Shown in pieces: positions 4,290-56,613 of a DNA stretch of 64,000 nt (position 1 is its first letter; each line of letters starts with the position of its first letter). Origin of the DNA: Eledone cirrhosa (lineage: Eukaryota); contig OZ024748.1 of NCBI GenBank assembly GCA_964016885.1, forward strand, positions 14,570,001 through 14,634,000. The letters are read 5' to 3'. The position numbers and the translations under genes are program-made. The notes below the pieces were generated by a model. The model did no database searches, was not told the origin of the DNA, and worked only from the letters and a program-made list of their open reading frames with translations.

Positions 4290-4820
4290 ATTTACCTCAT
4301 TCTGAGAAATGGTATGAGCATAAGCCAGAGTCAGTGATAGAAAACGATTGGGTGAAGGTGCTGTGGGATTTCAGGATTCAAACAGACAAAGAATTAAAAC
4401 ACAATAGGTCTGACCTGGTGGTTTTTGACAAGGAAAAAGATCTTGCCTGATTATAGATGTAACTTGCCCATTTGACACACACAAGTGTACAAGAAAAGAA
4501 GGAGAAAATTAACTGGTACCAGGATCTAAAGTGGGAACTGAAAAGGATTTGGGACTGTCATGAGATCAATGTCATCCCTATCATCATACGAGGACAAGGT
4601 ACTACCTCGAAGAGTTTCCAAGGCTGGTTAAAGAACATTGGCTCAGCACCCTTTTTTTGTAACACTTTGAAAGGCATGCCCACTGGGCACAACATGGACC
4701 CACCAATACATGCTGAATATCTGAGGCTGCAGGTAGTGGCTTGATGTTAATTAGGGTAAATTTTCTGGTTAAATAACATCATTGACTGAGATATTAAATT
4801 CATAATGATGATAATAATAA
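4290..4820 (+). mobile_element. R4/Dong-clade non-LTR retrotransposon 3' fragment (restriction-like endonuclease)
   Basis: Frameshifted KWYEHKPESVIEND..VLWDFRIQTDKELKHNRSDLVV / CLIIDVTCPFD / EKINWYQDLKWELKRIW...VIPIII; ends in (taa)n. Confidence 0.85.
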
Positions 4821-6964: not shown

Positions 6965-7301
6965 ATACACACACGCGCAAATGCATCCGCAGAGACAGAG
7001 ACAAAAATAGATAAATAAAATAAAATAAAAATAGCATGAACACAACAAAATAGGAGGAAACATGATAATAGTACCACTGATGATGTTGCAGATGTGCAAC
7101 GAAAGAACTTTGTTAGACTATATATATATATATTTATATCTGTATTTTTAACCGTTGGTCAGTCAATGATAAATATTGATTGCCAAATAAATTAACTATG
7201 GATATATAAAAGATGCAGAAGCAAAACCCAATCAAACAGTAAATGTGTTCTGTTATTATTTCTGGCAATATTATTACAACAATATGACACCCCCCAAGTA
7301 T

Positions 7302-7308
<7 letters not shown>
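6965..7308 (+). mobile_element. Diverged solo terminal repeat of the same Penelope-like family, with hammerhead-like motif at 7068-7121
   Basis: Colinear with ~17370-17728; contains CTGATGA-T-GTTGCA/TGCAAC-GAAA; ends in (TA)n. Confidence 0.8.
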
Positions 7309-7343
<35 letters not shown>

Positions 7344-10183: not shown

Positions 10184-10230
<47 letters not shown>

Positions 10231-10236
<6 letters not shown>

Positions 10237-10573
10237 ATACTTGGGGAGGGTCATATTTGTGTAATATTGCCAGAATTAATAACAGAACACACTCACTGTT
10301 TGGTTGGAAAGATGGCGTAAACATAAATGCAACGGGAGGAAACATAATAGCAATACTGACGATGTTGCAGATGTCTAACGAAAGAACTTTGATAGACTAT
10401 AAATATGTGTTTGTGTCTATATTGTATCTGTATTTTTGACCGTTGGTCAGTCAATGGAACATTGAGGACCGAATAAATTAAATTAACCGATATAAAAGAC
10501 ACAGAAGCGAAAACCAACCAAACAGTGAGTGTAAATTTCATATCAAAAGCCTCGCAAAACTAATTCATCGCCG

Positions 10574-10575
<2 letters not shown>
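10231..10575 (+). mobile_element. Short copy of the Penelope-like family: inverted repeat end, terminal repeat, tail
   Basis: 10231-10307 is an inverted copy of the repeat 3' end. It is followed by a sense repeat with CTGACGA (10356) and GAAA (10380), then the tail cctcgcaaaactaattcatcgccgtt. (TA)n on both sides. Confidence 0.85.
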
Positions 10576-11317: not shown

Positions 11318-11446
11318 AAATCAGGATAGAACAAGTTTGAAACTAGTTAGACCTTTACTCAACAGAGTACTTGATACTTAGTGTAGTAGAGTATGGATAT
11401 ATTATAAAGAAACGCCAAGAGCTCAGCTATTGGGTCCTGACTCATT
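11318..11446. mobile_element. Degenerate family A/B hairpin element
   Basis: cagagtacttgatacttagtgtagtagag (inverted tail) and gaaacgccaagagctcagctattgggtcctga (arm), between TA runs. Confidence 0.5.
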
Positions 11447-16110: not shown

Positions 16111-16286
16111 TATATGTATATGTATATATGTATATATGTATATGTATATGTATATATATATAACGGTGATGAATTAGTTTTGTGAGGTTTTTTATATGAA
16201 ATCGTGTGTCGAAACAAATATTGTTATACTTGGGGAGGGTCATATTTGTGTAATATTGCCAGAATTAATAACAGAACACACTCACT

Positions 16287-17243
16287 ATAGACGAGAGAGG
16301 CCAAATTCTCCACTCACATTATGCTAAACCCATGGCGTCCAAATACCTGATACTCAAAAACTCAGCAATGTCCAGTAGTGCTAAGTTTAATATTCTGATC
16401 GCAGATTTGGTACGAGTGATGAAGAATGTGTCCCACATGTGCGACCCAACAGAAATGGAAAGACACATCCAACACTTCATCAACCGCATGCAGTTCTCTG
16501 GCTACAATGAAAGAGACAGAGTCAGAGTATACGAAGGAGCCATGGAGAAGTATAAGACCCTCATAGAACTGGACATGAAAGGAATTTGCCCATTATACAG
16601 GAGCAAATCATGGAATAGCTTAGATAGGGCAAGACATAAGATAGGGAAAGCCACCTCATGGTACAACAGCCAGAGATACCAGAGTGTCATGTTTGTGGAC
16701 GCTACCCCTGGAGGGAAATTAGCTAACCAGTGTAGAAAGGCCCTGAGAAAGATCCACTTAAAGATTAAGGTGGTAGAAAAGCCAGGAACCACCATAAAAT
16801 CCCTGATCAGCAAAACCTACCCTTTTAAGAAAACCCACTGTACTAATAGGAAATGTATCATATGTAAGGTAAACCCCCGGATAAACTGTAAAACTAGAAA
16901 TGTAGTCTATAGCATAAGATGTACAGAGGGTACTTGCAGAAACATGACAACAACATACATAGGCGAGACAGCTCGTAGCATAGGTGAAAGGATAGACCAA
17001 CACTGGGGAGAACTAAAAGGACGAAAAAATGGGTCAGTACTATACGAACATGCTAGACAACAACATAACGGTAACATAGACAACATAGAAATTAGAATAA
17101 TATCTAAACATAGAAATGACCCAGCAGATAGGCAAATCAGAGAGGCCAGTGAAATAGAACTTAGAAGGCCAAGACTAAACAGAAAGAATGAATGGAATAA
17201 CAACAACACCCAAACAAACAACACTGACCTAAGAGAAGTATAA
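16287..17243 (+). pseudogene. Penelope-like ORF fragment: RT thumb, Cys-rich linker, GIY-YIG endonuclease
   Basis: HYAKPMAS...SA thumb motif, Cys linker (CTNRKCIIC...NC), VVYSIRC...C...YIGETARS.ER...H...H...H...RQIREA...LNRKNEW. The frame is open from the truncation junction at 16287, so the ATG at 16332 is internal. The RT catalytic core is absent. Confidence 0.9.
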
Positions 17244-17472
17244 ATAAATAAATAAATAAATAGATAAATAAATAAATAAATACATACACAAGCACAATAA
17301 CAACAAACACATATAAACACACACTAGTCACCCAATCACGAACACACATCAAACAAAACACTATACACACACACAAACGCATGCACAAAGAGGACAAAAT
17401 AAAATAAATGAATAAATATATAGACAGACTAAATAAAAATGGCGTAGACATACAATGTAACGGGAGGAAACA

Positions 17473-17526
17473 ATAGCACCACTGACGATGTTGCAGATGT
17501 GCAACGAAAGAACTTTGATAAACTAT
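17473..17526 (+). ncRNA. Hammerhead-ribozyme-like motif in the Penelope terminal repeat
   Basis: CTGACGA-T-GTTGCA(gatg)TGCAAC-GAAA-G(aa)C-TT. Core boxes and stem II are intact, stem III is minimal and stem I is imperfect. Confidence 0.6.
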
Positions 17527-17764
17527 ATATATGTGTTTGTGTCTATATTGTATCTGCATTATTTTTGACCGTCGGTCAGTCAATGGCAATATTGAGGACC
17601 GAATAAATTAGATTACCGATATAAAAGACACAGAAGCGAAAAGCGAAAACCAACCAAACAGTGAGTGTGTTCTGTTATTAATTCTGGCAATATTACACAA
17701 ATATGACCCTCCCCAAATATAACAATATATATATATATATATGTATATGTATATATATATATGT

Positions 17765-17816
<52 letters not shown>

Positions 17817-17817
<1 letters not shown>

Positions 17818-18006
17818 ACGAAGGAAATGTGGTAAGGAACCCAATGGACCATAATGCACCAAAGTACTCAATACTTAGGGTAGTAGAGTGGGTAATAGGA
17901 ATGAGTAGGACGCCGACGGCTAATTCTGGACTAAAAAATAAATAAAAAAAAAAAAATTACCCGTCGAAACGGCTTGAGATCAGCCGGCGGGGTCATACTC
18001 GTTCCT
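17817..18006. mobile_element. Hairpin element family A, internally deleted copy
   Basis: Same tail and arms as 49059-49277. The left arm is deleted between cga(c/t)ggct direct repeats; A-rich axis; (TA)n flanks. Confidence 0.8.
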
Positions 18007-18062
18007 ATATATATATGTATATATATACATATATATATAGGTAGATGTTTATATATGTAGAT

Positions 18063-18114
<52 letters not shown>

Positions 18115-18600
18115 TAGATGTTTATATATGTAGATGATATATATATATATTTATATATATATATATCATCATTCATTCATCATTTCATTTTACGTCCACT
18201 TTTCCCTGCTTGCAAGGGTGGGACGGGAACTGATTCTGGCTTGATTTCTACAGCTGGATGCCCTTCCTAACACCAACCTCATTTACAGTGAGTGCTGGGT
18301 GCTTTTATGCCGTGGCACCTCCACGACCACTTTGCAGTGGAATGATAGGGACCCCAGTCTCTATCATCTCATTTCTACAGCTGAGTAAACTGGAGCAATG
18401 TGAAATAAAGTGTCTTGCTCAAGGAAACAACACATCCTTGAGCAAGACACTTTATTTCACATTGCTCCAGTTTACTCAGCTGTAGAAATGAGATGATAGA
18501 GACTGGGGTCCTACTCATTCCTATTACCCACTCTACTACCCTAAGTATTGAGTACTTTGGTGCATTATGGTCCATTGGGTTCCTTACCACATTTCCTTCG

Positions 18601-18602
<2 letters not shown>

Positions 18603-19607: not shown

Positions 19608-19625
19608 GGTACATATATATATATA
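18603..19625. repeat. ~1 kb imperfect (TA)n microsatellite; other long TA/CA tracts at 15880-16161, 33170-33640, 63235-63945
   Basis: Direct reading. Confidence 0.97.
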
Positions 19626-19668
19626 TTGTTTCGACACACGATTTCATATAAAAAACCTCGCTAAACTA
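19626..19668 (+). mobile_element. Isolated tail fragment of the Penelope-like family
   Basis: ttgtttcgacacacgatttcatataaaaaacctc matches the reverse complement of ~16175-16217; embedded in (TA)n. Confidence 0.8.
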
Positions 19669-38650: not shown

Positions 38651-40216
38651 TGTGTGTCTGTATTTATGCCATGTGAATTAATAGCTCAATAAAACAGGGA
38701 TCAATAAAATAAATACCAAATTTGAATTTAAAAAAAAAATAAGTGCTGGTTTTGATATGATCAAGTAAATATATTTAAAACATTGCCCCAGTATGGCCAC
38801 AGTCTAATGACTGGAGCCAGTAAAAGAGTTTACATTTGCATAATTTTACAAAAATATCACACACTACAGTTCATATTTCATCTACAATATATTCTGGATG
38901 TGAAATATGTGTGAATTGTTGCTATAATTATTATCACCATAAAGGCTAATTTCCTTCATGTTAAGTATATATAGCTTTGAGAATACTCCAGTGTATCGCA
39001 GTAGGTTCCAATCTAAGTGGTAATATATATAAAATAGTAAAAATTTTAAATGTAAATGAGACTTCCTGCAATAAATGTGTTAAGAGAACAGAGTGGTGGA
39101 AAACATACAAGTACATTAGTACTATATTCTAGAAAACTCAAAATGTAGATTTGACACACAACTAATTCTTTGTATGAATTATTCAATTTCAATACATTAA
39201 TGTAATTTAATGAACAGTTGTCAGATGATTCTATGAAGTAGGAAGAATTTATTAATAAAGTGTCTCGAGATAAATTTGAAATTTACTGGCCAAAATATGG
39301 TGGCAAAGTGCTAGAGTTATTAGAATATCAAATAGAATGCTTTGCAGTATTTGATTTGGTTCTCTGTACTCTGTGTTCAAATCCCATCAAGATTAATTTT
39401 GCCTTTCATCCTTTTCATGTCGACAATAAAATACCAGTCCAGTACTGGTGTCAATTCTTCCTCTCCCTCTCTATTAAGTTCTTTGGAAGTAATCAGCTGT
39501 GTTCTGTCCTGGATAAGGATGGTCTCCATCAGATTTATATGCTCTAGATGTTTATATGCTTAATTAATTATTTATAAATGGTATGCTTATTGGACTCCGT
39601 CGAGATTTAGTGCTTAATAGACAGGCATTGATTGAAATACAAAGGGAAGGGAGAGAATTCCAACCATGAAATATTTGTAAGAAGATGTGAAGGCAAGTAG
39701 GAGAAATTTTTATGTAATCACTTGACTTGCTAGAAATTGCAGCCAAATCCTCCTCAAATCACACTATATATTAAAAATGGACATGGTGGTGTATGTGGTT
39801 CTAGATATATTATGTTTGAAAATAAAACCTATGATCAGAATTGTAATGTGTTTAACCATAGGTCTAAAGATAGGTCTCAATTGGTATGAAACAATAACAT
39901 TGTACACTTGTTAAATATACTTCAAAAGAACTATTTTTCCTGTATCTGTTTAACAGAAAAGGAAAGGTGTCAAACCTCAGATTGTACCAAAGAAACAATG
40001 TTTCCATTAGGCTTTCCATTACTGATACTATCTGCTAGTTATGTCTTCTGGCAGACAAAGTAACGTGAATTAAAGCATTTTGCTAAAAAATCCAACACAC
40101 CATCCAGTTCAGAAATGAAAACCACAACTCCATAGCCATTAATAATGAAGTCAGATAAAAAAAAAACATTAAAAAACAAATAAACACAAAAGAAATGCCA
40201 AATATTTTTTACTTAC

Positions 40217-40892
40217 TTTAGTGGAACAATTCTTCCATGTCGCCCAAGACAAGTTATATCCCTTTCCTGGTATCCAATGTAATGATGTAATCTTTGTTTA
40301 TGAACTGAATTTTTAGTGTAAATCTCCGTACATTTCCTCCACGGTCCTATGTTTAATATAAAAGAATCGATGCATTTTGGACAAGGTCTCATCTCCGAAA
40401 GAACAGGACAGGGATGACCACCACCAAAAGGGGGAACTACTACTGTTCGCGTTCTTGTTTTGTTGATGAAAGCACAAGACTCGCACGAACTCCATATTGA
40501 ATATTCTGAAACTATACAATCCTGCGGGCAAGAGAGATGGCACTTCCGTTCCGTGACAGGTTTACTAAAAAAGAAACTACACACATCATCGTCCATCATA
40601 TGTCTGGACTCCACCGATATACAGGTAACAGATCGGTTCTGTTCGCCTGATTGCTTTTTACAATCTGTTGTTGACGAAAATGATTGACATTTTCCCCAGG
40701 GGCCAAATTCCCAGATGAAGTTATTTTTATGATGACTGCAAGGTTTAAAACATTCTCGATATGATGCCGGTTTGCGGACGTTATAGCATCTGTTTCTATC
40801 CACTGTTTCTCCGTGTACCCCAATACATTTCAAATCCCGCGTTTTTGTCCCACCATTGCCACACCTATTATATTCACAGGTGCTCCATTCAC
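40217..40892 (-). CDS. THSD7: Internal coding exon of a THSD7A/THSD7B-like thrombospondin type-1 repeat protein (N-terminal TSRs)
   Basis: Translation GEWSTCEYNRCGNGGTKTRDLKC...CFKPC...WEFGPWGKC...CPQDCIVSEYSIWSSC...TRTRTVVVPPFGGGHPCPVLSEMRPC...IGYQERDITC shows alternating THSD7-type TSR domains. The acceptor is poly-T gtag|GT at 40892 (phase 1), the donor is AA|gtaagt at 40217 (phase 2), and the exon is 676 nt with no stops. Confidence 0.92.
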
Positions 40893-42757
40893 CTACAAAA
40901 AAAAAAAAAAATAACATTAATAATGATAATAATAATAGCAGTTTCTTATTTAGGCACAAGGCCAACAATTCTTAGGAAGAGGAAAGTCAATTGAATTACT
41001 GGAATTTTATTTTATCAATCCCATAGGGATGAAAGGAAAGCTAGTCTCATAGCTACAAATACTACTACTCCTACTACTATTACTAATAATAATAATAATG
41101 ATGATGATAATAATAATAAATAGAAACAACAACAGCAAAAACAACACTGCACATAATCAAAGGTGCACTGGCAGAGCTTGGTAATGCAGTGATAGCATGC
41201 AATGTTAGTAAAACTGCAGATGAAAATAATAGTATCAACAACGATAATAATAATAAACATTGAAACAGCATTGATGCTGTAATAGAATACACTCAGTACA
41301 CTCTAATGAGTTTGTTGTTCAAATGGAGACAATATAGGGGAGAAGAGAGGACTCTTCAGTCTGGCCATGCATGTGATAACTCTTTGAGTACTAGTGCTGC
41401 CACCGTTGCTGCCACTACCACCACCATCATTGCCACTCTATTTCTCTCTCTTTGTCAAACATTCACTGTTACTACACCCTTAACACTACTGTGTCAGCCT
41501 TTTTCCACCAAAGATGCAACAGCAAAAATACAATAATTAGATTTTTTCTCTATATCTCCCTCTCTCTCCATTTCTCTTTACCCCCCCCCCCTCTGTCTCT
41601 CCTCAATCTATGAATCATTTAAATTTAATACACAATAGAACTGCACTGAAAACCCCTTCCTTTATTTGCCAATTGACAAAGGTGCTTTTGAAACCCTTCC
41701 AGCCATAGCAGCATGAAAATTATTTAAAGACAAAGAAAGCTATTTGGTAACAAGTATGAAACCTTGCAGGTGTTACACTGATGTTTGCAGAGGTTTTTAT
41801 ATTGATTATATATTGATGATTATGATGGTGTTGGTGATGGTATTGATGGTGATGATGATAATGCCAAAATCGCTATGTAAAAGATATAACACTGTGACCT
41901 CAACTAGAGGACACCATGACCCCAACTAGATGACCTAGTGGCCTCAACTAGGTAACATTGTAATCTTAACTAGGTGCCAGGATGAACTTAACAAGATGAC
42001 CTTGTGACCCCAACAAAATGATATCATGACCTCTACTAAAGGACACTGACATCAAGTAAAGGATATTGTGACCTTAATTGGCCCTTAAGACTGATTCTGT
42101 TAAGTCAGAAATGCTTTTACACAGAATACAATAAATTTAAAACAATTAGCATTCTGTAGTTGATAAATTAACTCTTTCATTACCACATTTCTAATGAAAG
42201 ACACTGTATAATTTTTAAATAATTTTGAAAATAATCAAGAATTTGTAGAGATTTAGTACTATAACTGACACTCTTATTAAGATGTTGCTTAGAAGATATA
42301 AAAATGTTCTTAAATAAAATTAGGATGCAAGTATTTTAAATAAGCATAAACATGTGTTTTCAGTTTAGAGTATATACACTGAATCCTTGTATGTCATAAG
42401 AAATGACTAAAAGTGTTGATGTCAGGTAGTGCATCCAACTGTAAAACATTATCTAAAAAAGCCAGCTTATGCCAGCAAAGAAAAGTCAATGTAAAAATGA
42501 TGATGATAAATACTTTAAAATAAACAATTTTCTGTCATAAAACCAGGGTCAGTTTCAGGTTGAGTTAATAACCAAGTAGAACTGGTTTACTACTGAAGAA
42601 GGTTTAGGGTAAACACTGTATATTTGCTTCCTACTTGGCCTCAGGGAGAACTTAATATTTACATTAGTAAAGCTACAATAAATATAATGTTGTCAATAGT
42701 TCATATAAAAGTATGTGTGTATGTATGTGTATGTATATATATATATATATATATATA

Positions 42758-49058: not shown

Positions 49059-49060
<2 letters not shown>

Positions 49061-49274
49061 CGAAGGAAATGTGGTAAGGAACCAGGTGGACCATAACGCA
49101 CCAAAGTACTCAATACTTGGGGTAGTAGAGTGGGTAATAGGAACCAGTAAGACCCCGATGGCTGAGCTCAAGCCGTTTCGACGGCTAATTCTGGACTAGA
49201 ATTCTGGACTAGAATTCGTCCAGAATTAGCCGTCGAAACGGCTTGAGCTCAGCCGTCGGGGTCTTACTGGTTCC

Positions 49275-49277
<3 letters not shown>
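49059..49277. mobile_element. Non-coding hairpin element family A (60-bp inverted repeat plus unique tail) in (AT)n
   Basis: Arms 49137-49196 and 49218-49277 have one G-T mismatch; tail 49059-49136; homologous to 17817-18006 and 18508-18602. Confidence 0.85.
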
Positions 49278-49309
<32 letters not shown>

Positions 49310-49630
49310 CTATATATATATATACACATGTTTTATATATATATATATACATATGTATATTATCATCATCACTGTTTAACATCCGTTTTTCCATACTAGC
49401 ATGGTTTAGACAACTTGTCTCTTGTGAGACAAGTCAAGTGAGATGACCACCTCTTGCTCATACATAATTAATTTCGGTTTGGTTTCTAGTGTTGGATGCC
49501 CTTTCTAACACGAACCACATTTACTGTGTGTGCTGGGTGCTTTTTGTCATGAAAAATACACAATACTTTAAATTGTGGGCTGGGTGCTTTTGTCATGATA
49601 CATAAATGATAGCTCTACAGTGTGGGCTGG

Positions 49631-49728
<98 letters not shown>

Positions 49729-50522
49729 CCAGCCCACAGAGTGCATCAAGAGGCAAGATATCTCAGTGTGGTTATGAAAGCAAAGGAGATATCATTCCCT
49801 CTGTTAACATGGATTGTGTGTGTATGTATGTATGTATGTATGTGTATATATATGTATGTGTGTGTGTATATGAAAGTGAGTATATGTATGTGAAAGTGTG
49901 TGATAGTCAAGAAGGCAATATATCTCAGTGTGAATATGAGAACAGAGGTGACATTGCATTGTATGTGAGTATGTGAGTATGAATGCATGTATATGAATGT
50001 GCGGATATGGGAACTAAGGAGATCTAAGATGTTATTGGAGAGATCATATCTTCCAGGTAGTTTCAGCACTTTAGATATGTTTCAGGTGAGGATGGGGGGG
50101 AAGGTGGTGGAAATATATCAGTTGATAAACTAAATAGATTCTTCTCATTCTTCAAGGATGAGTGACATAGCTGCCAGCAAAGACGAGGAGGGATATATAT
50201 ATATGTATATATATATATATTATTTCACATTGCTCCAGTTTACTCAGCTGTAGAAATTAGATGATAGGACTGGGGTCCCTATCATTCCACTGCAAAGTGG
50301 TCAAGGAGGTGCCACGGCAAAAAAGCACCCAGCCCACACTGTAAAGGGGACGTGTAGGCGCCACGGGAAAAAAAGCACCCAGCACTCACTGTAAATAAGG
50401 TTGGTGTTAGGAAGGGCATCCAGCTGTAGAAATCAAGCCAGAAACAGTTCCCGTCTCACCCTTGAAAGCATGGAAAAGCGGACGTAAAATGATGATGATG
50501 ATGATGACATATATGAAATATG

Positions 50523-50707
50523 AAAAGATTCAGGACCCCGATGTCTGAGCTCTGGCCGTTTCGAAAGCTAGATCTGGATCTAGCTATCGAAATGGTCGGA
50601 GCTCAGCCATTGGGGTCCTGAATCTTTTGATACTACCCACTCCTTGACCCAAGTATCGAGTACTCTGGTGGGTTATGGTCCATCAGGTTTTTACCACAAC
50701 CAATCTG
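50523..50707 (+). mobile_element. Hairpin element family B (relative of family A)
   Basis: Arms 50523-50574 and 50577-50628. Shares gaccccgatg.ctgagctc..gccgtttcga and the tail motifs tacccactc...caagtat.gagtact.tggtg.gttatggtcca...ttaccaca with family A. Ends in (AT)n. Confidence 0.8.
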
Positions 50708-54213: not shown

Positions 54214-54283
54214 CTAGATCCGAGTTCTCAGTTTGGATCTAGCTGTTGAAACGGCCAAAGCTCAGCCATCGGGGTCCTGAATC
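54214..54283 (+). mobile_element. Fragment of hairpin family B
   Basis: ctagatcc...ggatctag hairpin, then gaaacggccaaagctcagccatcggggtcctgaatc, then (TA)n. Confidence 0.7.
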
Positions 54284-54393: not shown

Positions 54394-56413
54394 GCGTGTG
54401 TGTGTGTGTGTGCGTGTGCGTGTGTGTGTGTGTGTGAGTCTGTGTGAGTCTGTGTGTGTATTGAAGAATGAAAAGAAAAGGCAAAGATAGATTCATAATT
54501 AGTTCATTGTTTTACAATCATTTCAGAGGGTTGATTGATCATGATAAATCAATATAGTGACTAATAGATAGTGGTTATACCACAAATAAGACTGTATAGA
54601 GTTCTAAAAATGATATAAGCCCTACCATAAACAGGTGGATACCAGTCTAATAATTTAAATATATTTATTGCCATTATTGATGGTATGGTTACACTAATCA
54701 CAGAAAATGTAATATAAGAAAATATCTAAAACATTCCAGTACATATTTTAGCAAATATAACTTCCTGTTACACTGGATATAGAACAAGCTAAAATAACAT
54801 GTCGGTTTCAAGAAAAAGTCTTTAACAAAAATCTACATTGGTTACTACAGTTAACAATGAATGAATCCTTTTTTCTTTCTTTCTGTCTTTCTTTCTTTCT
54901 TCTATTCCGTTTATATGATACAATGTAAGGTAATTTAGTAAATCAGGAATTTCAGCATAGTCTCAGATCTCCCTCTCTCTCACCCTCATTCTCCTGTCTA
55001 TGCAGGAATGTCCAACAAATTTCTTCTGTTGGTATTTTCTAAACGAATGTCTATCACTGCATTGCTTTACAGTAATTCTTGAAACAAGCTTTTAACGTAT
55101 TATTTTGACAACATGTAAATAGTTGATACCTTAACTGCCTCCTTTTAACATGCCAAACTTACCGTTCTTCTGAGTTATTTTGACATATTCTCATGTCAAA
55201 CTAATAGACCCATAAAGAGATCTTACAATGAAAAGTTCAGAATATTTCTTCTACCATTGTTGTAAAGTTAGTTGTTCCTCTGTGACTATTAATTCTAGGT
55301 CTTTCTTTTTCCATTGGGGTGAAAATATGATCTGTTTGATGGTTTAACACTTTTGTTACTGCATTTCTAATGAAAGACACTGCCTTATATTTTTAAATAA
55401 TTTAGAAATTAATCAAGAATTTGGAGGGATTTTGTAATATAACTATTTCATTATTAAACTGCTATTTGAGACATAACTTAACAAAGTGTACTTGCACAAA
55501 ATTATAATGGGAGGTTTTCAGATAAATATAAACTGTCTAACCCATGCTAGCATAGTAAAAAGGACATTAAATGGTGATGATGATAAATACTTTAACCTAT
55601 TTGTTACTTTATTGCTAATGAAAAGCACTGCCCATAATATATAGATAATTTTGAAAATAATCAAGAATTTGGAGGGATTTAGTAATATGACTAATTTTCT
55701 ATTTAAGCTGGTTTTTGGAACTTAAGAAAGATTCTTACATAAAATTATGGTGAAGATTTAAATAAAATATCTAAATCTCTATGAACAGTTCTCAGATTAT
55801 GCACTTTGATACAAAACTACTTATTTTAAAATATTTCTATTTATCTAAGAACCTTGAGAAATAATGGTTTCTGATTTTGGAGGAGAGGAAAGTTGATTAA
55901 ATCAACCCAGTGAATTACTGGTACTATATTTTATCGACCCTGTAAGGATGTAAGGCAAAGCTAACCTCAGGGCGATTTGAACTCAGAACATAAAGGCTAC
56001 TAAGCATCTTGTCTGACGCACTACCAATTCTGCCAGGCTACCGCCACAAATAATTTTATGTAATAAACTTTGGTAAGTTATGTTACAAATACCGGCTTAA
56101 CAATGAGAAAGTTATATTTCTAAAATTCTTCTAAATTATTGAAATGCTTTTGAAAATTTTTGGAAATATGGTAATGAAAGTGTTAAAAATCACAATTTAT
56201 CCAACAGAGAAATACAGTAAAGGGAAACAGAGAAATTTCTGGTGATCATCAATATTCACCTATCATTAATTAACAATTTGGTAATTCTATTTGCAACTGT
56301 TAATTGGAAATTTGGAAAGATTAGCTGACATATATGTATAGATATATATCACCGTCATCAGGCAGCTGTCACATGCTGAGACCAAACTATATATATATAT
56401 ATAGAGAGAGAGA

Positions 56414-56613
56414 NNNNNNNNNNNNNNNNNNNNNNNNNNNNNNNNNNNNNNNNNNNNNNNNNNNNNNNNNNNNNNNNNNNNNNNNNNNNNNNNNNNNNNN
56501 NNNNNNNNNNNNNNNNNNNNNNNNNNNNNNNNNNNNNNNNNNNNNNNNNNNNNNNNNNNNNNNNNNNNNNNNNNNNNNNNNNNNNNNNNNNNNNNNNNNN
56601 NNNNNNNNNNNNN
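56414..56613. other. Assembly gap (200 N)
   Basis: Run of exactly 200 N between microsatellites; the fixed length suggests a scaffolding placeholder. Confidence 0.99.

What the first reader, a model, noticed from the sequence alone, without database searches (positions are those of the whole stretch)
49059..49277. (AT)n-embedded hairpin elements that look like fold-back products of half a hammerhead ribozyme
Seen: a 60-bp near-perfect hairpin with a unique tail on one arm only, between TA runs. The same layout occurs at 17817-18006 and, as a diverged family, at 50523-50707; fragments lie at 54214-54283 and 11318-11446. Each arm reads [stem]-GAAAC-GGCT-tgagctc-AGCC-GTC-ggggtc, matching the GAAA box, a stem III with palindromic loop and a GUC cleavage triplet of a type-I hammerhead. 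The CTGANGA half is missing and is replaced by the inverted copy. In every copy that keeps an axis, it falls just 5' of GAAA, where stem II would be. The layout (inverted end plus tail) matches the coding Penelope element at 16162-17728, and the family A and Penelope tails both end CGTT-(AT)n. Known: Penelope-like elements carry hammerheads and often form inverted repeats with a tail. Inference: these are ~200-bp Penelope-dependent elements whose cDNA self-primes on the ribozyme stem II, possibly an undescribed non-autonomous family.
Basis: partly seen in the sequence, partly recalled or inferred. Interest (0 to 1): 0.78.

Follow-up and report, generated by a model that had tools for sequence, protein, structure and literature searches.

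The report
Abortive Penelope insertions halving a hammerhead
These 200-base hairpins, with about 16,000 close copies in this genome, are two tail-end fragments of a protein-coding Penelope-type jumping gene joined head to head, and they stop at one spot inside its hammerhead ribozyme motif, likely because copying ran off the start of the element's RNA.

Summary
The hairpin-plus-tail is real and abundant: 16,017 exact-core hairpins genome-wide. Its 140-bp unit is 97.9% identical to the pLTR end of a coding Penelope-like element (L112; intact 718-aa ORF with Hydra-clade motifs). The parent carries the whole type-I hammerhead, mostly with the known U3-A8 core (TTGANAA) rather than CTGANGA. The window's own Penelope (16162-17728) is a different clade and not the parent. 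3' ends fall at two exact sites 80 nt apart, matching the two internal priming sites published for a lizard PLE. 5' ends stop at a TYAGT motif inside loop II in two sister families. Self-priming on stem II is not supported: 0 of 58 hairpins keep the apical loop, the tail-less arm is longer in 9 of 24, and the centres are microhomology or templated-insertion joints. Best reading: abortive two-primer insertions, probably strong-stop cDNAs that reached the RNA 5' end, rather than an independent non-autonomous family. The architecture, core variant and clade are published. The fixed stop inside the ribozyme is the new lead and needs 5'-end RNA mapping; no RNA run was available.

The parts
49059..49277 (.). 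Whole family A insertion: tail + arm + scrambled joint + inverted arm, inside (TA)n
49059..49198 (-). Tail-bearing copy (140 bp) of the parent's pLTR end and the start of its coding region; 3' end at the distal site
   Evidence: 97.9% identical over 140 bp to L112:6848-6987
49059..49138 (-). 80-bp tail, the stretch between the two inferred RT start sites
   Evidence: 3' ends of 104 unbiased arms: 42 at the proximal and 35 at the distal site, 80 nt apart; in L112 the tail runs on into the ORF
49193..49198 (-). TYAGT motif where short arms stop; initiator-like, inferred RNA 5' end
   Evidence: function untested
49199..49214 (.). Joint made of short pieces copied from the arm ends
   Evidence: 12-nt exact match to the arm against 4.9 in shuffles (row L001)
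49215..49277 (+). Tail-less inverted copy ending at the proximal site
   Evidence: 96.8% over 63 bp to L112:6847-6909
49235..49262 (+). 3' half of a type-I hammerhead: GAAA box, stem III with palindromic loop, GUC triplet, 3' strand of stem I
   Evidence: pairs with the 5' half present in long copies
17817..18008 (.). Family A hairpin with an internal deletion and a poly(A) centre
18505..18602 (+).
   Evidence: 90.8% over 98 bp to L112
50519..50707 (+). Family B hairpin with tail (sister family)
   Evidence: 81% over 134 bp to the long B copy L210
54214..54284 (+). Family B single tail-less arm
   Evidence: 92.7% over 55 bp to L210
11318..11446 (.). Old B-like remnant: partial tail joined to a partial inverted arm
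   Evidence: two matches of opposite orientation to L210, 88.7% and 84.8%
16162..17728 (+). 5'-truncated coding Penelope-like element of another clade with the same inverted-plus-tail layout; not the parent
   Evidence: ORF 16272-17243

Best explanation
The hairpins are two head-to-head fragments of the pLTR end of a coding Penelope-like element with Hydra-clade motifs, likely made as abortive insertions in which both ends of a cut in (TA)n primed reverse transcription and the two short cDNAs were then joined. Shown: parentage, the full hammerhead in long copies, two exact 3' end sites, one narrow 5' stop zone, joints with microhomology or templated insertions, and arms that usually share a subfamily haplotype. 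Inferred: the two 3' sites are internal RT start sites; both cDNAs come from one RNA or one RNP; they stop because they reach the 5' end of the mRNA at an initiator-like TYAGT inside loop II, so they are strong-stop products; long copies would need a template jump to the downstream pLTR; the short copies are probably dead. The half ribozyme is then a by-product of where the RNA starts, not a primer.
For: Parent: 16 of 104 unbiased arms continue into long pLTR sequence; L112 is pLTR-ORF-pLTR with an inverted tailed copy; 97.9% identity. Hammerhead: 88% of cells paired against 23-48% for slid controls in 33 long copies, A-U/G-C exchange in stem II; core position 7 varies freely; unconstrained fold of L112 gives the three-way junction. 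3' ends: 42 and 35 of 104 at two sites, as for the two RT start sites that bound the tail in PMC11167929. 5' stop: 71 of 104 arms end 9-23 nt upstream of the core and 2 of 104 at 24-59 nt; genome-wide 29,695 arms reach the A of AGT and 11,544 reach 4 nt further; family B stops in the same register, 29 of 31 arms at 18 nt or less once the long copy L182 and the through-loop arm of L200 are set aside, although its loop II differs. The stop lies beyond the 9-bp helix, not at its base. Two primers: tail-less arm longer in 9, tailed arm in 11, equal in 4 of 24 unbiased hairpins; 10 unbiased joints have a tail-less arm fused to a tailed copy that lacks most or all of the arm. Joints: 12 microhomology, 5 blunt, 7 insertion of 24; 23 of 29 insertions of 6 nt or more are copied from the arm. 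Arms differ by 1.25 nt within a hairpin against 4.7 in shuffled pairs.
Against: No RNA evidence for the start site, for transcription or for cleavage. The ceiling is not absolute: 16 of 80 arms that reach AGT are preceded by TTT as in most parents, and a cap-derived G could not be told from partner-arm sequence. One B hairpin (L200) has both arms running into loop II. Later deletions at hairpin tips could produce some of the asymmetry. 5 of the 30 best hits share a centre with another copy (L026/L027/L030, L017/L025), which allows some copying of whole hairpins. 36 of 87 short arms had no exact long-copy haplotype in my sample. The window's other Penelope family has no fixed stop, 8 of 10 arms run on, so the rule is not general. 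Only 5 of 21 pairs change on both sides, no more than shuffles (180 of 500); 3 of 4 folds were not more stable than shuffles and L085 folded differently. The unbiased sample is the first 12 Mb of one chromosome.
Confidence: 0.55

Rival explanations
1. One reading: one cDNA runs through the tail and arm, folds back on ribozyme stem II and primes its own inverted copy.
For: The axis is in the stem II domain; arms are concordant; self-priming was proposed for palindromes at PLE inverted junctions (PMC3846280); L200 reaches the loop. Snap-back on short microhomologies near the cDNA end could explain the cases where the tailed arm is longer.
Against: 0 of 58 family A hairpins keep the parental apical loop; tail-less arm longer in 9 of 24; 10 joints lack the arm on the tailed side; arms end before they have copied the 5' strand they would need to pair with.
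Confidence: 0.12
2. Same two-cDNA joining, but the stop is an RT block or RNA-processing site inside a longer RNA: a 3' splice site (YAG) of a pLTR intron, bound protein, or RNA structure.
For: Family A has a pyrimidine run ending in YAG at the stop; Drosophila Penelope has a 5' intron whose end meets the ribozyme (PMC4209133, PMC2377424).
Against: Family B has no pyrimidine tract there; arms keep the AG (A at that position in 80 of 103); no constant upstream exon appears in the centres; the apical helix differs between A and B while the stop does not move.
Confidence: 0.2
3. The 140-bp unit or the whole hairpin is now a SINE-like non-autonomous family, transcribed from an internal promoter and moved in trans.
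For: 62,608 arm cores; one haplotype has 21 short and 2 long copies; some identical centres recur; non-autonomous PLE derivatives are known (PMC8557442).
Against: Centres are mostly different and the same short joints recur across subfamilies; main haplotypes have long coding relatives; in the lizard PLE the RNA must extend well past the RT start sites to be used, and the short copies end there.
Confidence: 0.1
4. DNA transposon, MITE or Helentron.
For: Inverted ends in TA runs.
Against: The unit is part of a retroelement pLTR; the tail is on one side only; centres are built anew.
Confidence: 0.02

Closest known systems
Hydra-clade C-terminal-endonuclease PLEs, e.g. Hydra-1_Obim (Craig et al. 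2021, PMC8557442; section 11 and supplement passages read)
   Same: Single ORF, RWx, DKT, CxCX5C linker, CxxC and CxH around E and N, no CCHH, (TA)n target, hammerhead in the terminal repeat; by-eye similarity to the printed Hydra-1_Obim protein.
   Different: A different family: unit 3.1 kb, U3-A8 core with a 52-55 nt stem II domain and 5-6 bp stem III, against the CTGAAGAG minimal motif listed for Hydra-1_Obim; tail 80 bp rather than 30-40.
Canonical PLE insertion unit: pLTR, adjacent inverted 5'-truncated copy, one-sided tail (PMC8557442; PMC3846280, passages and Discussion read)
   Same: Head-to-head inverted copies, one-sided tail, palindromic junctions.
   Different: Here both copies usually stop in one narrow zone, giving about 16,000 near-perfect 200-bp hairpins; the junction data favour two primed cDNAs over the published self-priming reading.
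PAc (Poseidon from Anolis) in vitro mechanism (Frangieh et al. 2024, PMC11167929; parts 1-2 of 4 read)
   Same: Two internal RT start sites bound the tail; AT-rich target; both strands cut and extended; ribozyme cleavage not needed for insertion.
   Different: Other clade; sites 80 nt apart here; the parts read do not address where cDNAs end or how they are joined.
PLE hammerheads including the U3-A8 variant (Cervera and De la Pena 2014, PMC4209133; parts 1-2 of 4 read)
   Same: Type I, U3-A8 covariation, G10.1-C11.1, long helix II, short helix I, palindromic loop 3; opposite-strand pairs of motifs were noted there.
   Different: Helix III is long here; most genomic copies hold only the 3' half; one subfamily has a C3-A8 mismatch.
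Non-LTR retrozymes (bioRxiv 10.64898/2026.07.22.740005; part 1 of 5 read)
   Same: Short, non-coding, PLE-derived, hammerhead-related.
   Different: Retrozymes are tandem repeats with a complete ribozyme in each unit; these are inverted pairs with half a ribozyme.
Retroviral minus-strand strong-stop DNA and L1 twin priming (recalled, not tested)
   Same: A short cDNA that runs to the RNA 5' end; two primers on one RNA giving an inversion.
   Different: Target-primed at both ends and integrated as an abortive product.

Membership tests
Endonuclease-positive PLE (parent L112) | Single ORF with RT and C-terminal GIY-YIG endonuclease | tested here: met
   718-aa intact ORF; RT and EN motifs match the printed Hydra alignment by eye; EN region aligns to the window PLE at E 2e-05; 2,058 homologs, top hit carries PF01541. 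Direct Pfam and PDB scans found nothing.
Endonuclease-positive PLE (parent L112) | Tandem pLTR-ORF-pLTR with inverted truncated copy and one-sided tail | tested here: met
   Arm cores at 4318 (-), 6864 (+), 9982 (+) in L112; the last copy ends without tail.
Hydra clade | RWK-type motif, DKT, CxCX5C linker, CxxC/CxH, no CCHH | tested here: met
   LRWRTFF (RWR, not RWK), SDKTGN, CNCPDRSIC, CNLCSEE, NKK..CKH, one Cys in the GIY-YIG core.
Hydra clade | (TA)n insertion | tested here: met
   96 of 104 unbiased arms are followed by a TA run within the stretch read.
Hydra clade | Placement in an RT phylogeny | not tested
   No reference Hydra proteins were held as sequences.
Type-I hammerhead (long copies) | Helices I-III around the core boxes and an NUH triplet | tested here: met
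   Helices 91.5, 89.7 and 82.2% paired; core TTGANAA in 25, CTGANAA in 12, TTGAAGA in 1 of 38 segments, a few being one locus cut twice; CTGAGGA in 4 of 100 listed B-type hits.
Type-I hammerhead (long copies) | Self-cleavage | not testable with these tools
   Needs in vitro transcription.
Type-I hammerhead (short hairpin copies) | 5' core box present | tested here: not met
   None in the window; arms stop about 35 nt downstream of it.
Non-LTR retrozyme | Tandem units, each with a complete ribozyme | tested here: not met
   Copies are inverted pairs with half a ribozyme.
Independent non-autonomous PLE family | Whole unit propagated from short master copies | tested here: inconclusive
   Centres mostly differ, 5 of 30 best hits share one; 51 of 87 haplotypes have long relatives.
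MITE or Helentron | Terminal repeats tied to a DNA transposase, fixed internal sequence | tested here: not met
   Sequence derives from a retroelement pLTR; centre variable. A target-site duplication cannot be read inside (TA)n.

The most novel reading that the evidence does not exclude
Penelope-like elements replicate through a retrovirus-like strong-stop step: transcription starts inside the hammerhead, so the mRNA's 5' ribozyme is disarmed and only the 3' copy is whole; both target ends prime short cDNAs to the cap, and a jump to the downstream pLTR builds the tandem, intron-keeping long copies. The 16,000 hairpins are the fossil record of failed jumps and map the start site to the base.
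Probability: 0.3. Interest if true: 0.7.

Novelty: new member of a known kind. Interest (0 to 1): 0.42.

Why it matters
How PLEs make their tandem and inverted structures, and what their hammerheads do, are open questions. This family gives tens of thousands of junctions with exact ends and an intact 718-aa enzyme, so two-primer joining versus self-priming and the strong-stop idea can be tested by counting and by one 5'-end mapping experiment. In practice, repeat annotation would likely file these hairpins as MITEs or unknown repeats, and ribozyme searches that demand CUGANGA miss this family.

Tried and rejected
Rfam scan: only TA-repeat noise in the 150 rows shown. CTGANGA within 30 nt of the arm: 39 hits, 30 inspected, all scrambled centres or joints with other repeats; that gap, and the 8-38 nt gap (9 hits, not inspected), were too short for the real 52-55 nt stem II domain, so one search is the valid test. 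L039 looked like a parent but is a chimera with another hammerhead-bearing family. A DNA search with the tail alone returned nothing because common words are skipped. An initiator-like stop in other families was withdrawn: the window's Penelope has no fixed stop, and the family D cases were selected by my own pattern. A cap-derived G is ambiguous. No RNA holder listed; contigs laid on the parent showed the two 3' end sites and no splice joint at the stop, but contigs cannot show starts, strand or absence. Pfam and PDB scans of the ORF were blank. One search used a structure string shifted by one column and is superseded. Literature: penelope-like + strong-stop gave 1 listing and penelope-like + twin priming 3, none on PLE mechanism by title and abstract start. 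Subscription papers and Repbase/Dfam were not searched, and I saw only passages of one supplement, so the family may already have a library name.

Full report
Observation. The element at 49059-49277 is as described: TA run, 80-bp tail, arm, short scrambled centre, inverted arm, TA run. The arms give 59 matching pairs and the fold is far beyond shuffles (z -20.3). The four other copies are real and a sixth lies at 18505-18602. The genome is 3.0 Gb. A 19-mer from the arm has 62,608 exact matches, and 16,017 places hold two cores head to head within 60 nt; both are exact-match counts and so lower bounds. The host looks cephalopod-like to me from recall; this was not tested.

The parent. I took the first 100 core matches by coordinate as an unbiased sample; with a looser anchor these loci gave 104 arms. 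Sixteen continue into a long shared upstream sequence. L112 holds a near-complete unit: an inverted tailed copy, then pLTR, an intact 718-aa ORF and a second pLTR that ends without a tail. The window's 140-bp unit is 97.9% identical to the pLTR end of L112, and there the tail runs on into the reading frame. The protein has the motifs that Craig et al. list for the Hydra clade, and it resembles their Hydra-1_Obim by eye. It has 2,058 homologs at E <= 1e-20 among 8,000 candidates scored, although Pfam and PDB scans were blank. The Penelope at 16162-17728 shares only 27% over 106 aa, and tblastn of the parent protein finds nothing in the window. It is not the parent.

The ribozyme. Long copies read stem I, core, a 52-55 nt stem II domain, GAAA, stem III, GTC, stem I. 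The core is TTGANAA in 25, CTGANAA in 12 and TTGAAGA in 1 of 38 segments, with position 7 varying among G, T and A. Genome-wide the A8 form has 2,799 hits, some counted twice, and canonical CTGANGA 11. Family B has its own long copies (273 hits; 4 of the 100 listed are CTGAGGA), one beside an endonuclease region 46% identical to the A protein. On 33 long A and B copies the named structure is 88% paired against 23-48% when slid, with a G-C/A-U exchange in stem II; the number of pairs changed on both sides (5 of 21) does not beat shuffles. L112, L219 and L063 fold into the three-way shape unconstrained, L085 does not, and only L063 is clearly more stable than shuffles. U3-A8 is a published PLE variant (PMC4209133). 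Cleavage is untested, and the C3-A8 subfamily would be expected to be impaired (inference from the core mutants).

Where copies end. 3' ends are exact: 42 of 104 arms at the proximal site and 35 at the distal site 80 nt further; both sites read TAT, a short match to the target. This fits the two internal RT start sites that bound the tail of a lizard PLE in vitro (PMC11167929). 5' ends are bunched: 15 arms end 0-8 nt upstream of the core, 71 at 9-23, 2 at 24-59 and 16 beyond 60. Genome-wide, 29,695 arms reach the A of an AGT in loop II and 11,544 reach 4 nt further, a figure that includes the long copies. Family B stops in the same register although its loop II is GC-rich and differently folded; TYAGT is what the two share. 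The motif resembles the invertebrate initiator (recalled consensus), and PLEs are reported to have internal promoters with initiator-like motifs in the pLTR (PMC2377424, PMC3846280). That the stop is the RNA 5' end is my inference. Against it: some arms run 3-4 nt further, a cap signature could not be shown, L200 runs into the loop, and the window's other Penelope has no fixed stop.

How the arms are joined. In 58 family A hairpins (24 unbiased, 24 best hits, 10 from the CTGANGA search; identical ones merged) none keeps the parental apical loop. Among the 24 unbiased ones the tailed arm is longer in 11, the tail-less arm in 9, and 4 are equal; 12 joints show microhomology, 5 are blunt and 7 have insertions. 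Of 29 insertions of 6 nt or more, 23 are copied from the arm. Arms within a hairpin differ by 1.25 nt in a 24-nt diagnostic stretch against 4.7 for shuffled pairs. Ten more unbiased joints fuse a tail-less arm to a tailed copy that lacks most or all of the arm, which one folded-back tailed cDNA cannot make without a later deletion. Arms are also found fused to other hammerhead-bearing repeats. These data favour two primed cDNAs from one RNA or RNP, joined by end repair, over self-priming on stem II. Later tip deletions remain a caveat.

Independent family? Probably not. 51 of 87 unbiased short arms share an exact haplotype with a long copy in hand, and the window copy had no identical twin among the 40 candidates scored. 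But 5 of the 30 best hits share a centre with another copy, so some whole-unit copying is not excluded.

Comparison and verdict. The inverted-plus-tail unit, junction palindromes, the U3-A8 core, the Hydra clade and the two start sites are all published. Earlier notes of this scan on other genomes read similar hairpins as ordinary PLE insertion products; they are unchecked and not independent support. What I did not find in the searches listed is a fixed 5' stop inside the ribozyme at an initiator-like motif, or a strong-stop reading of it. Verdict: a new, very abundant member of a known kind, with one testable mechanistic lead. Interest 0.42.

Noticed in passing
window 40213-40971 (-): Open frame with thrombospondin type-1 domains (PF19030, PF19028), probably an exon of the gene in or near which these repeats lie.
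   Followed up: no
window 7053-7309, 10229-10575, 19621-19668: More fragments of the 16162-17728 Penelope family, two with a CTGANGA...GAAA motif; its linker and two-cysteine GIY-YIG core look Neptune/Nematis-like by the description.
   Followed up: partly
window 49621-49738: A long (TA)n run flanked by a near-perfect inverted copy of about 19 bp of non-TA sequence, forming a 118-bp palindrome; possibly a cruciform repair scar.
   Followed up: no
L031, L045, L051, L039, L044, L053, L087 at about 1500: Family A arms fused head to head with fragments of other repeat families, several hammerhead-bearing; suggests template jumps between RNAs or shared targets.
   Followed up: partly
many loci, e.g. 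L015, L022, L023, L057, L068: At least six further repeat families with CTGANGA...GAAA motifs sit in the same TA runs.
   Followed up: no
L076, L159, L169, L172, L176: A young-looking subfamily has a C3-A8 mismatch in the ribozyme core yet many copies, consistent with cleavage being dispensable.
   Followed up: partly
window 17930-17960; L114; L106: Poly(A)/poly(T) runs directly at the 5' stop, as if RT slipped at the template end.
   Followed up: no
window about 56400-56600: A run of N in the window.
   Followed up: no
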